Origin: Octopus sinensis
Taxonomy: Eukaryota
Direction of reading: 5' to 3'
Assembly: GCF_006345805.1 (NCBI RefSeq)
Contig: NW_021826724.1
Coordinates: 1 to 12,096 of the forward strand
DNA: 12,096 nucleotides
The position numbers were made by a program, and so were the translations under genes. This document shows positions 3,582 through 10,869 of this stretch, piece by piece (the stretch's first letter is position 1; each line of letters begins with the position of its first letter). The notes below the pieces were generated by a model. The model was not told the origin of the DNA. It searched no databases and saw only the letters and a list, made by a program, of their open reading frames with translations.

Positions 3582-4066
3582 GGAATAACAACAGAAAAAG
3601 ATGGAATAGGCAAACGCCAGAAAAGGTTCCAGAAAATGAGAAAGTAACCATACTCTGGGATATGCCAATACACACAGAGAAATTTAAGGTCAATAGACTG
3701 GATATAGTTGTCAAAAATCATGAAGGATAAAGAATGCTTTCTAATCGATGTATCAATACTAACAGATGACAATGTTTCTATAAAAGAAACGGAGAACTTT
3801 CAAAATACAAAAACCTGGAAATACGCACAGTAGGCACATTAGGTATGATAAAAAAAATACTCAGACAAATACATAACAAAAACACCTGGACTAACAAGTA
3901 TATGTAACCATACAAAAAATAGGACTACTAGGCACCGCACACATCCTATGCAAAACACTTTCAATACGGTAAGAATAAGGGGATCACGACAAACCACAGC
4001 ACATACCCGAGGCACACAGAGCTGCGCTCGGTAGTGCAGTGAAAGCAAGTGATAAAAATAAGACTA

Positions 4067-6548: not shown

Positions 6549-6966
6549 CTCTTTTACTTGTTTCAGTCATTTGACTGCGGCTATGCTGGAGCACCGCCTT
6601 TAGTCGATCAAATTGACCCCATGACTTATTCTTTGTAAGCCCATTACTTATTCTATCGGTCTCTTTTGCCGAACCGTTAGGTGACGGGGACGTAAAACAC
6701 CAGCATCGTTTGTCAAGCAATGCTAAGGGGACAAACACAGACTCACAAACACACAAACACACACACACTTCACATATATATATATATATATATAATACAT
6801 ATATATACGACAGGCTTCTTTCAGTTTCCGTCTACCAAATCCACTCACAAGGTATTGGTCGGCCGGGCTATAGCAGAAGACACTTGCCCAAGATGCCACG
6901 CAGTGGGACTAAACCCGGACCATGTGGTTGGTTAGCAAGCTACTACCACACAGCCACTCCTGCGCC
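6549..6966 (-). mobile_element. Full-length tRNA-derived SINE, family B, with internal (TA)/(TG) microsatellite
   Basis: Minus-strand head GGCGCAGGAG-TGGCTGTGTGG (A-box 6956-6946), GGTTTAGTCCC (B-box-like 6915-6905) and CORE-like cttgggcaagtgtcttct. The 3' part ends tgactgaaacaagtaaaagag and matches 7590-7735. Confidence 0.9.
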
Positions 6967-6973
6967 TATATAT

Positions 6974-7035
<62 letters not shown>

Positions 7036-7046
7036 ATTATTATATA
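6967..7046. repeat. (TA)n tract
   Basis: Read directly. Confidence 0.95.
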
Positions 7047-7250
7047 TATCTGTAAAATAATATGTGACAATTATTCGGTAGCCCAAGATAAACTGAGTTT
7101 CGGATGCCGAGGTAGAAATCCACAACACCATCTCTTCGGTTATCTGGTCAGATAACCGAAGAGATGGTGGTGTGGATTTCCACCTCGGCATCCGAAACTC
7201 AGAGTTTTATCTTGGCTATTGAATAATTGTCACGTATTATTTTACAGATA
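7047..7250. repeat. Long inverted repeat (arms 7047-7146 and 7149-7250, 2-nt spacer)
   Basis: Arms are reverse complements with about 5 substitutions and 3 small indels by manual alignment. Centre is ttcggttatctg-gt-cagataaccgaa. Confidence 0.97.
7150..7212 (+). ncRNA. Type I hammerhead ribozyme-like fold with variant core (CCGAAGA)
   Basis: Stem I AGAUAA (7150-7155)/UUAUCU (7207-7212). Core CCGAAGA 7156-7162. Stem II GAUG...CAUC(C) with inner GUGG/CCAC. GAAA 7194-7197. Stem III ACU-cag-AGU. Triplet GUU ending at 7206. Confidence 0.6.
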
Positions 7251-7314
7251 ATTTCCTCTATTTACATAATATTGTGGTCTCTTTCTTTCTTTTGTTATCT
7301 TACCGTTTTTTACC

Positions 7315-7337
7315 ATATATTATATTTATATATACCA

Positions 7338-7380
<43 letters not shown>

Positions 7381-7421: not shown

Positions 7422-7503
7422 ATTTTCTTCAGGTTGAGTAGCCCATCCCGCTCAAACGGTCCCTGAATAAGGGTTGTTTAAGGATGTTGAAAAACCCACC
7501 CAT
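7422..7503 (+). repeat. 82-bp near-exact copy of 10464-10546
   Basis: attttcttcaggttgagtagcccatcccgctcaaacgg...gaaaaacccacccat is identical apart from one T indel. Confidence 0.97.
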
Positions 7504-7589: not shown

Positions 7590-7741
7590 TTACGTCCCCA
7601 TAACTTAGCGGTTCGGCTAAGAGGCCGATAGAATAAGTACTAGGCTTACAAAGAATAAGTCCTGCGGTCGATGTGTTCGACTAAAGGCGGTGCTCCAACA
7701 TGGCCGCAGTCAACATGACTGAAACAAATAAAAGAATAAAA
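7590..7741 (+). mobile_element. 5'-truncated SINE, family B (3' portion)
   Basis: Roughly 85-90% identical by eye to the reverse complement of 6549-6695. Confidence 0.9.
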
Positions 7742-7767: not shown

Positions 7768-7803
7768 AAAACTCTGATTCGATTAAAAACTCTAGATTCG
7801 ATT
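7768..7803. repeat. ~18-bp tandem duplication
   Basis: aaaactctgattcgatt / aaaaactctagattcgatt. Confidence 0.85.
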
Positions 7804-9562
7804 AAAAATCGAAAGTACTGAATCAAAGTGAGGTTGTCAGTATCTGCATAGATATTTGGGTTCGGGTTAACTTCATGATCAGATTGTATTATATTTAATT
7901 ACTTAGTTCTACATATCCTTATATTCAAAGCGGAAGAAACGTGTACGGAAACGAAAGTTGTTTTGTCCCTCACAAATTATAACTCTACAACAATCATGTA
8001 AATACTGCAAAGGTCTACATCTGTTCTTGAAATATATTTGACGTTTCGCCATCATAAAGGCTAATCTTACGACAACTGCTTTCTTATAATATACATTAAA
8101 CCTTACTAATCCTCTGTGCTATCTGTATTGGAAACCTAAGAAAACAAAACTTCATGCAATAAGCATATTAATATTAACCTAGTTAAAAATATATCTCTTG
8201 GGCTTTCAAATATTTCTGCCATTAACTAAATCTGAATGATTCATCTGTTTATTACACTGACGTTCTTTTCAGATGAAGATATGAAGACGATCTAGGTCTG
8301 TTTATTGAAGACAGCATGAGAACTGGAAGCCACGGAAATTGGCAAAGGAACATTAATATGTATTGCTCTTTTAATTTTGAAAAACTTTCCTGAAAATTAC
8401 TGAAGAAACATTTCTCTTTTAGCTGGAGGACCTTAAAATCTTTAATAAAATTACTTGAAAATCTTTTCTCCTACTAATCTACCATTTCATAAATTATTGA
8501 CTCATAGAAACTTTCCAAACTTAACCAAGCCGCTGCTTACCTATCAATAATGACTACAAGGGCATTAAGCGCAAGAGGCAGTTCAAGGTCCAATTTCTAG
8601 TTAAAGATATCGTATTCCAATGTGTTGTAGAAATCAATACCTTACCAGAGGTATATCTTTATCTCACCTCCAATCCATTTATATTTCATTTGTACCAGCA
8701 CACACATATATTTTATAACGCAATCCGCTTATCTCATGAATTTTGAAACAAATATCAAACCAAATATCTTGGAACGCAACTTTCATTCCTAAACAAAATC
8801 ATAATCCGATAATAAAAGACCTTACAACATTTGCACGACTGAGAGCTTTGAAATACATATTTCTTTAAAGCTTTCATCCTCAACAGCTACTCAAAATGGA
8901 GTATTTAAAAATTGTAGACAATTTACATCTATCAGATATCCCATTAGATAACATAGCATTGCATATTCTATGACCTACCGTTTAACTAGTTTAACACGCC
9001 ACACCAACCATATTTTAGCACATGCCTATACCTCTATTTAATTTACATAGGATCTAAAACCTGACTTTATTTCTGCTATCTCGCTTACTTCTCGAATCTG
9101 CAGGTATATACCTTTATAGTTTTAGAATTAATCTTTCCAACCTCCATACGTTGTATTTCATATTTTCTTTTATCTTAATTCAATTGTTTTCAGATATCTG
9201 TGCAGATCATAGCTAAGTTCAGTCGTAATATTTTCCCATAAAGGTTTTTGAAGTTGAAATATTAAAATAGAAGGTAAAACAGTAAACATTTTTTTTTGTT
9301 TAGCAGTAATTTCCATTTCTTTATTCCCAACATGCATTGAAGCGGCTTCATAAAACTCTATTAAATGTATTTCCCAATATTTCATACAAACAATGTTATT
9401 CCCATATACATACATAAATACATAAATATACACACGCATACAGAGATATGGGTACCTTGTGTGTGTGTGCGTGCGTGTGCGTGTGTGTTTGGGTATTTCT
9501 GTATTTCTATACAGGAATAACAGCTTTCTTTTGTATCGAAAGCATGACTGGTTTCTAAGACT

Positions 9563-9610: not shown

Positions 9611-9783
9611 CAAAGATATCGATACGCACACGGACATTATGTCGTAAAAGAATTTACATAATAAACATGCATTTAACTGCGCTTTGTAAATAGGCAACAT
9701 GGCTAAAACCATACAGTTGTATTTGCATACAAGAATGAAGAACGGGTTCGCCTGGTTTCCGCAGTTCGTATTTGGTATTTATG

Positions 9784-9882
9784 AGTGTCAAACACTTATA
9801 AGTGTCAAACATTTATAAATGTCAAACACTTAGAAGTGTCAAACACTTATAAATGTCAAACACTTATAAGTGTCAAACACTT
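9784..9882. repeat. 17-bp minisatellite, about 5.8 copies (AGTGTCAAACACTTATA)
   Basis: Units start at 9784, 9801, 9818, 9835, 9852 and 9869, each with 0-2 substitutions. Confidence 0.97.
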
Positions 9883-10279: not shown

Positions 10280-10869
10280 GAGTGAGAGAGCAGTTCATGC
10301 CATCAAAGTGACACTGGGGTAAAATATACGATGCCCAATATACCCATCATGACTACCCGTCTGATAAGGGCATACCAGGCACATGCTCACACCATATGTG
10401 CGCGGCATGGTGATCTCATATCAAGATAAACTGCACATGACCTTGCAGGTGGGCCCAGTTAGAATTTTCTTCAGGTTGAGTAGCCCATCCCGCTCAAACG
10501 GTCCCTGAATAAGGGTTGTTTTAAGGATGTTGAAAAACCCACCCATGTCTCCAGAGGTGAATTATTCAAACCCCAAAGAATCCCTCTCAACACATGGCTA
10601 TGATGCTCTCCCCCACTACTTCTGCTCGTGATCAGAGATGCACATTCGTCAGCCACTAAGGGACGTGCTCAACTGGTTAAAGTCAAACAACTGACAAGCA
10701 AATCTGTGGTATTGAGCAGAATATTTGCTGTAGCCCATCTTTTATACCAAGACAGAACAATGTACATGATAACACTCCCAATCAGTTAAGATCAGAAGCC
10801 ATCAGAGCCTCTGCCTGGTACTGCATCAGGGCATTCGATAACACTCCCAATCAGTTAAGATCAGAAGCC
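10280..10869. mobile_element. Unclassified ~590-bp interspersed element flanked by (TTA)n on both sides
   Basis: Higher-GC island between ATT tracts with no convincing ORF. An internal piece recurs at 7422-7503. On the minus strand it ends ...cactc-AATAATAAT, similar to the actg-AATAAT ends of the RLE elements. Confidence 0.6.

What the first reader, a model, noticed from the sequence alone, without database searches (positions are those of the whole stretch)
7047..7250. ~100-bp-arm palindrome pairs the ribozyme with its own antisense
Seen: a back-to-back inverted duplication with a 2-nt spacer, whose centre lies immediately 5' of hammerhead stem I. The minus-strand copy has lost 3 nt around stem III and the cleavage site, breaking its register. 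On the + strand three substitutions become G-U wobbles and one is an A-C mismatch. Inference: read-through RNA would form a ~100-bp hairpin that sequesters the ribozyme and could be a Dicer or ADAR substrate. The DNA could extrude a cruciform. A likely origin is fold-back or template switching during Penelope-type insertion.
Basis: partly seen in the sequence, partly recalled or inferred. Interest (0 to 1): 0.7.

Follow-up and report, generated by a model that had tools for sequence, protein, structure and literature searches.

The report
Back-to-back Penelope retrotransposon end fragments
This 100-base palindrome is a very short insertion of a Penelope-type retrotransposon, made of two copies of the element's ribozyme-bearing end joined back to back; many copies in this genome have the same layout, which likely comes from how the element inserts rather than from a device to control the ribozyme.

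Summary
The palindrome is real: arms 7047-7146 and 7149-7250, RNA hairpin -155 kcal/mol, z -27. It is one insertion of a high-copy Hydra-clade Penelope-like retrotransposon (PLE) in a (TA)n tract. A near-full-length copy elsewhere has pLTR-hammerhead, tail, a 717-aa RT + GIY-YIG-type frame with all Hydra motifs, and a second pLTR. The '2-nt spacer' is the family's own TGGCCA with one C>T change. The layout is family-wide: 182 sites have arms within 30 nt, 36 share this exact centre, 117 of 121 pairs carry exactly one tail, and 29 of 30 tail-less ends sampled in genome order have an inverted tail upstream. Inverted pLTR plus tail is published PLE anatomy. The family data favour two primings, one per target strand, at two fixed RNA sites, over simple fold-back (inferred). 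The ribozyme has a family-wide U4C core, activity untested. Nothing here supports transcription, editing, Dicer processing or cruciform function. New member of a known kind; low interest for the locus, moderate for the family.

The parts
6967..7046 (.). (TA)n target tract, left
   Evidence: TRF array 6967-7049; tail-less family ends run into TA repeats
7047..7146 (-). Tail-less pLTR 3' end (the element's normal 3' terminus), 5'-truncated; holds a damaged hammerhead copy at about 7086-7145 (3 nt missing, 1 nt extra)
   Evidence: same end follows the ORF in L023 and L051
7145..7150 (.). Junction: the family's TGGCCA palindrome (here TGGTCA), at the outer base of extended stem I; a 5'-end hot spot
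   Evidence: 36 sites with a 2-nt centre, 34 GC; 16 of 59 arms end at 7143-7146
7150..7212 (+). Type I hammerhead motif, U4C core (CCGAAGA), extra base before GAA, 4-bp stem III with 1-nt loop, GUU cleavage triplet (cut after 7206); activity untested
   Evidence: sequence; Hydra-clade table in Craig 2021 File S2; C4 in 100 of 103 arms not chosen on the core
7149..7250 (+). Inverted, 5'-truncated pLTR copy (tail-bearing arm)
   Evidence: 97% identical to top family copies
7251..7315 (+). PLE tail: the ~65 nt that follow the pLTR and begin the 5' leader of a full element
   Evidence: in L051 the tail follows the 5' pLTR and ends 105 nt before the ATG
7315..7368 (.). (TA)n target tract, right
   Evidence: TRF

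Best explanation
The feature is one short insertion of a Hydra-clade Penelope-like retrotransposon into a (TA)n tract, and its palindrome likely arose when two cDNAs, primed from opposite target strands at two fixed sites about 65 nt apart in the element RNA, broke off at the base of the ribozyme and were joined head to head at the TGGCCA microhomology. Shown here: family membership, link to an RT + GIY-YIG-type frame, fixed outer ends, one tail per insertion, a variable centre with a hot spot at 7143-7146. Inferred: both-strand nicking and two-site priming (by analogy with the anole element in vitro), duplication when the tail-primed cDNA runs past the second start site on the same or a second RNA copy, and joining by microhomology. 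The copy is most likely neutral debris.
For: Family size: 2116 first-look candidates and 2780 exact core 21-mers. L023 and L051 tie this end to the frame; L051 reads pLTR, tail, 717-aa frame, pLTR, (TA)n. Motifs RWK, DKT, YKDD, CxCx5C, CxxC..E and CxH are present, as described for Hydra (PMC8557442 section 11 passages). Among neighbouring core hits within 5 kb on C1 (first 100 listed), 21 pairs are back-to-back, 2 direct and 0 convergent. 117 of 121 back-to-back pairs have exactly one tail and none has two. 29 of 30 tail-less ends have an inverted tail end upstream, against 1 of 30 downstream and 0 of 29 for tail arms. 11 of those 30 have little or no duplicated pLTR. Arms usually share a subfamily: 0.71 differences against 3.77 +/- 0.21 when permuted, 105 pairs. 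4 of 21 pairs still differ at a two-letter haplotype site, above a copy-error model (P 0.0007-0.02) and below random pairing (P 0.007). The anole PLE cuts and extends both strands and starts RT at two sites that bound the tail (PMC11167929).
Against: No biochemistry on this family. [quoted passage not shown] Arkhipova 2013 reads junction palindromes as self-priming, and symmetric centres like this one fit that too; L017 shows a short self-primed filler. The 4-of-21 discordance could be later gene conversion, and those pairs were read by hand from listings. mixes samples chosen in different ways and holds a few duplicated loci. No target-site duplication can be read inside (TA)n.
Confidence: 0.85

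Rival explanations
1. Same element, but the palindrome comes from self-priming fold-back: one cDNA (or an antisense template) snaps back at TGGCCA and copies itself.
For: 36 sites centre exactly on this 6-mer. Other centres fall on native palindromes: AACGTT and stem III (L249). 27 of 105 pairs have identical arms over 88 positions. Proposed for PLEs in PMC3846280. L017 has a self-copied filler.
Against: It cannot make the 11 of 30 insertions whose inverted piece is tail only. It does not explain a fixed outer end on the tail-less arm. About 10 of the 16 arms ending at 7143-7146 are not symmetric fold-backs (hand count). This copy's arms differ at 7170 and 7219-7220, sites that vary across the family.
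Confidence: 0.2
2. A functional device: read-through RNA pairs the ribozyme with its antisense to silence it, or feeds Dicer or ADAR; or the DNA extrudes a cruciform.
For: Thermodynamically sound if transcribed: -155.2 kcal/mol against -81.0 with the hammerhead forced; DNA hairpin -100 kcal/mol. PLE copies give small RNAs in a rotifer (PMC3846280). Heavy A-to-I editing in cephalopods is recalled, from no call.
Against: The layout is the family default. The arms carry mismatches and indels, none of them a compensating pair. No host gene is evident in the 12-kb contig (by inspection). Hammerhead cleavage was dispensable for insertion in the anole element.
Confidence: 0.05
3. A fold-back or MITE-type DNA transposon with long terminal inverted repeats and TA target sites.
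For: Palindromic, TA-flanked and high copy.
Against: The ends are asymmetric (one tail, 117 of 121), the spacer varies from 2 to 3063 nt, and long copies hold RT + GIY-YIG-type sequence between the arms.
Confidence: 0.01
4. An assembly artefact (chimeric fold-back reads).
For: Small unplaced 12-kb contig. The left-arm indels sit in homopolymer or dinucleotide runs. No laid contig spans the whole element.
Against: The arms differ by 5 substitutions, 3 of them at family-variable sites. The tail asymmetry follows the family rule. The same centre occurs at 35 other places, all on chromosome-scale contigs. The individual indels could still be consensus errors.
Confidence: 0.03

Closest known systems
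Hydra-clade PLEs, e.g. Hydra-1_Obim, Penelope-3_HM, Penelope-13_HM (Craig et al. 2021, PMC8557442)
   Same: Short element, single RT + C-terminal EN frame, RWK, DKT and CxCx5C motifs, (TA)n targets, type I hammerhead near the 3' end. Penelope-3_HM has the same stem III and cleavage base. Penelope-13_HM has an inverted 5'-truncated copy with a hammerhead on each strand.
   Different: A separate family from Hydra-1_Obim: protein roughly half identical by eye, different ribozyme sequence. Core is CCGA, where every Hydra row in File S2 has CUGA. Tail about 65 nt rather than 30-40.
Adineta vaga Penelope (Arkhipova et al. 2013, PMC3846280)
   Same: Adjacent inverted pLTR, tail on one inverted pLTR, palindromes at the inverted junction.
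   Different: Low copy there, with readable target-site duplications; here thousands of copies in (TA)n and a near-obligate one-tail rule.
Poseidon PAc of Anolis (Frangieh et al. 2024, PMC11167929)
   Same: Tail equals the stretch between two RT start sites; AT-rich target; both strands cut and extended; hammerhead in the pLTR.
   Different: Different clade. There the ORF starts inside the ribozyme; here the ATG lies about 270 nt after its start. That paper does not discuss inverted junctions (find).
Minimal hammerheads of metazoan PLEs (Cervera and de la Pena 2014, PMC4209133)
   Same: Hammerheads in pLTRs; paired motifs 100-700 bp apart on opposite strands already noted as truncated PLEs; palindromic stem III; low activity in vitro.
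   Different: Here the extra base lies before GAA, and position 4 is C.
L1 twin priming (recalled, from no call)
   Same: Two target ends prime the RNA and give a 5' inversion joined by microhomology.
   Different: Occasional in L1, with a variable internal site and no duplication; here near-obligate, at a fixed site and often with duplication.

Membership tests
EN+ Penelope-like element | Single frame with RT and C-terminal GIY-YIG endonuclease linked to this end | tested here: met
   L051 717-aa frame with YKDD and an IY..YVG nuclease-type motif between two pLTRs; 835 relatives, the best 120 at 42-52% identity. Pfam gave no hit for this protein and only a below-cutoff GIY-YIG hit in 1 of 5 relatives, so the domain names rest on motifs.
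EN+ Penelope-like element | pLTRs, direct or inverted, with 5' truncation | tested here: met
   direct pLTRs in L051, inverted in L023 and many more
EN+ Penelope-like element | Tail at one end that continues into the 5' leader | tested here: met
   117 of 121 pairs have one tail; tail leads towards the ATG in L051; about 65 nt, longer than the usual 30-40
Hydra clade | RWK motif, DKG changed to DKT, CxCx5C linker, CxxC and CxH in the nuclease | tested here: met
   all present in L051 and in 114-120 of 120 relatives; definition
Hydra clade | Under 3 kb, (TA)n insertion | tested here: met
   L051 about 2.8 kb, its 3' end runs into (TA)n; short copies lie in TA tracts at both ends
Hydra clade | Placement in the Hydra clade on an RT tree | not tested
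   no tree built; published reference proteins were compared by eye only
Canonical type I hammerhead | Three stems around the core, NUH site | tested here: met
   stems and GUU triplet in the sequence; hammerhead fold -8.7 against MFE -18.0 kcal/mol for the isolated arm, so not the predicted ground state; Rfam no hit
Canonical type I hammerhead | Core CUGANGA with stem II abutting GAA | tested here: not met
   C at position 4 in 100 of 103 arms and one extra base at 7193. U4C is reported as weakened but functional in viroid-type RNAs (PMC3088659; PMC9608096). It is a variant hammerhead, not a canonical one.
Canonical type I hammerhead | Self-cleavage | not testable with these tools
   needs in vitro transcription
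Non-LTR retrozyme | Head-to-tail tandem units, each with a hammerhead | tested here: not met
   head-to-head single insertion; 2 direct against 21 inverted neighbour pairs; definition from bioRxiv 10.64898/2026.07.22.740005
MITE / fold-back DNA transposon | Symmetric termini, fixed length, no RT link | tested here: not met

The most novel reading that the evidence does not exclude
This family inserts by obligate twin priming: each target strand is tied to its own fixed RNA start site (pLTR end or tail end), so nearly every insertion is born as an inverted pair. The hammerhead, weakened by a family-wide U4C change, shapes the products as a folded barrier where cDNAs break off rather than as a cutter. 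Thousands of copies would then be a natural read-out of the unsolved PLE insertion mechanism, and a factory of long hairpins in a genome rich in RNA editing.
Probability: 0.35. Interest if true: 0.55.

Novelty: new member of a known kind. Interest (0 to 1): 0.28.

Why it matters
The locus itself is ordinary transposon debris. The family matters somewhat more. How PLEs form inverted pLTRs and one-sided tails is named as open in PMC8557442. A young, high-copy family with a 29-of-30 one-tail rule and informative haplotypes can separate self-priming from two-strand priming by counting alone. It also shows a PLE that spread with a U4C hammerhead, which bears on whether these ribozymes need to cut. 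Such short palindromes could be mislabelled as MITEs or microRNA hairpins (Rfam gave sub-threshold microRNA matches here).

Tried and rejected
Rfam: no hammerhead family; microRNA matches at 7091-7204 are all below gathering score and reflect the hairpin. Pfam on the L023 and L051 proteins: 0 families. PDB sequence search: nothing meaningful. Protein atlas gave no answer. No RNA holder listed on record. Contigs laid on 7040-7320 (4 runs) are dominated by other family copies, none spans the element, and they cannot show editing. The single-copy flank 7780-8700 is covered by one DNA-type contig (X2) and by none of three guessed-RNA runs; this is no evidence either way on expression. C10:96.62 Mb shares the GT centre but has different flanks, so it is not a duplicate of this locus. 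Truncation at the ribozyme cut site: about 9 of 59 arms end at 7201-7210 by hand count, too weak to claim. A crossover between the arms could explain this copy's mixed haplotypes (7170 G with TT, 7170 T with CC); not testable with the copies held. Earlier scan notes: none by place or by sequence. A search for 'Penelope-like' + 'twin priming' + 'inverted' listed 2 papers, neither on PLE junctions by title and abstract start; subscription papers are not searched, so novelty of that idea is not established.

Full report
Observation. The window holds a near-perfect inverted duplication, arms 7047-7146 and 7149-7250, centre GT. It folds as one RNA hairpin of -155.2 kcal/mol, z -26.8 against 200 shuffles. 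The arms differ by five substitutions (three G-U, one A-C and one A-G on the + strand RNA), a 3-nt loss and a 1-nt gain in the left arm. (TA)n arrays flank it at 6967-7049 and 7315-7368. The + strand arm reads as a type I hammerhead: stem I 7150-55/7207-12, core CCGAAGA, stem II, one extra base, GAA, 4-bp stem III with a 1-nt loop, GUU cut site. Rfam did not detect it.

It is a repeat. A search of the own genome (2.72 Gb, 13,516 contigs) with 7150-7300 gave 2116 candidates, of which 40 were scored; 19 extra rows were inverted partners, mostly covering query 1-101 only. An exact 21-letter core pattern has 2780 matches, reversed control 0. Arms back to back within 30 nt occur at 182 sites, and with a 2-nt centre at 36 sites, 34 reading GC and 2 GT. 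So the 'spacer' is the family's TGGCCA with one change. The genome looks like an octopus by its repeat landscape (recalled, not tested), and the best-matching named element seen in the papers read is from an octopus.

It belongs to a Penelope-like retrotransposon. In L023 the two arms enclose 1.3 kb: a truncated nuclease-type frame, a 3' untranslated stretch and the tail-less arm running into (TA)n. A search with that frame gave 16,152 candidates, 150 scored. L051 is near full length, about 2.8 kb: pLTR with hammerhead, tail, 105 nt, ATG, a 717-aa open stretch, second pLTR, (TA)n. The protein has RWK, DKT, YKDD, CxCx5C, CxxC..E and CxH, each also in 113-120 of the 120 listed relatives. These are the marks of the Hydra clade in Craig et al. 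2021 (PMC8557442; I saw passages, the outline, supplement part 2 and search hits in the supplement). Its File S2 lists Hydra hammerheads of the same build, one with the same stem III and cleavage base, and a family with an inverted copy carrying a hammerhead on each strand. Pfam and PDB gave no support for the domain names, and no tree was built. The window's left arm is thus the element's normal 3' end on the minus strand; the right arm plus 7251-7315 is the inverted 5' piece with its tail.

The layout is the family rule. Of 121 back-to-back pairs in the loci held (mixed sampling, a few duplicates), 117 have exactly one tail, none has two and 4 have none, one of those being cut by the locus edge. 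For a less biased view I took the first 30 loci in genome order for each end type of the window's subfamily (323 and 245 matches in all; one duplicate dropped, 59 arms). 29 of 30 tail-less ends have an inverted tail end upstream, against 1 of 30 downstream; 0 of 29 tail arms have one. 18 of the 30 have a duplicated pLTR piece and 11 have a tail piece with little or no duplication. Tail arms are less strictly paired: 18 of 29 had a detected partner, and about 6 sit alone. On C1, neighbouring core hits within 5 kb are back-to-back 21 times, direct twice and never convergent, with spacers of 2 to 3063 nt (first 100 listed).

The centre is a hot spot, not a design. 16 of 59 arms end at 7143-7146; a flat model over 7100-7218 (51 arms) expects about 1.7, P 6e-12. 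That figure is inflated somewhat, because symmetric junctions count twice and the flat model is crude. About 10 of the 16 are not symmetric fold-backs (hand count). The place is both the TGGCCA palindrome and the outer base of extended stem I. Centres also cluster there in a younger subfamily that has TAGCCA instead. Other junctions fall inside the ribozyme, for example on stem III.

Mechanism. Frangieh et al. 2024 (PMC11167929; parts 1-2 of 4 read and a find) show an anole PLE protein cutting and extending both strands of AT-rich DNA, starting at two RNA sites that bound the tail, with no need for hammerhead cleavage. The simplest reading here is that each nicked strand of (TA)n primes one site, the two cDNAs break off and join head to head by microhomology, and overlap beyond the second site makes the palindrome. 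Arms mostly share a subfamily (0.71 against 3.77 differences at 14 variable columns, 105 pairs), as expected from one source RNA. Yet 4 of 21 pairs differ at a two-letter haplotype site, as does this copy, pointing to two templates or later conversion in a minority. Against this reading: the anole assay saw no strand difference in start site, and Arkhipova et al. 2013 (PMC3846280; part 1 of 5 and passages) interpret such junction palindromes as self-priming. I put identity as a PLE insertion at about 0.95 and two-strand priming at about 0.6-0.7.

Ribozyme. Position 4 is C in 100 of 103 arms not chosen on the core, including 46 of 48 beside long frames; read contigs show a T minority. U4C is reported as weakened yet functional in viroid-type RNAs (passages of PMC3088659 and PMC9608096). 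Metazoan PLE hammerheads cut poorly in vitro, and opposite-strand pairs were already noted (PMC4209133, parts 1-2 of 4). The left copy has lost register at stem III and the cut site; a 2-nt loss there recurs in other copies (L197, L198, L254), and the indels could also be consensus errors.

Function at this locus. If transcribed, the hairpin would win over the ribozyme by about 74 kcal/mol. Nothing shows transcription, editing, small RNAs or selection, and the data at hand cannot test them. A 2026 octopus repeat paper counts recent Penelope-like insertions but has no mention of hammerhead, Hydra or palindrome in its main text (PMC13282606, find only; supplements not seen). From the retrozyme preprint I read part 1 of 5.

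Verdict. Real, explained, and a known architecture in a family that appears unnamed in the papers I saw. Interest 0.28; the family-level one-tail rule and break-off hot spot are the only parts worth following.

Noticed in passing
window 6571-6665 and 7619-7713: Two copies of a very abundant short interspersed repeat in inverted orientation (95 nt, 89% complementary, 953 nt apart) enclose the insertion, so a larger duplex could form in read-through RNA.
   Followed up: no
window 6808-6966: Another interspersed repeat (SINE-like, recalled) ends in the (TA)n tract that was the target; many family copies sit beside the same repeat.
   Followed up: no
family position about 7272 (L014, L072, L123, L124, L179, L184): A few short arms end about 22 nt into the tail instead of at 7250, a possible third start site. 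All three ends read TTTAC plus 1-4 letters and then TA.
   Followed up: partly
L017 junction; L199/L231 junction: Complex joints: a short sense piece of the ribozyme 3' half copied between the arms (L017) and a tripled core start (L199), signs of occasional self-priming or template jumps.
   Followed up: partly
L023:1932-2993 (+): A 353-aa open stretch that looks like a coiled-coil host exon lies 250 nt from a family insertion; a candidate intronic copy for editing tests.
   Followed up: no
L002-L006, L008: Six loci on different contigs share the same insertion and flanks, suggesting uncollapsed or segmental duplicates.
   Followed up: no
window 3590-4060: Decayed 3' piece resembling a non-LTR retrotransposon nuclease region followed by (AAT)n (family recalled, not tested).
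   Followed up: no
window 9779-9882: Six tandem copies of a 17-nt unit, 89% alike.
   Followed up: no
window 7422-7503 and about 10460-10545: Two direct copies of another abundant repeat fragment.
   Followed up: no
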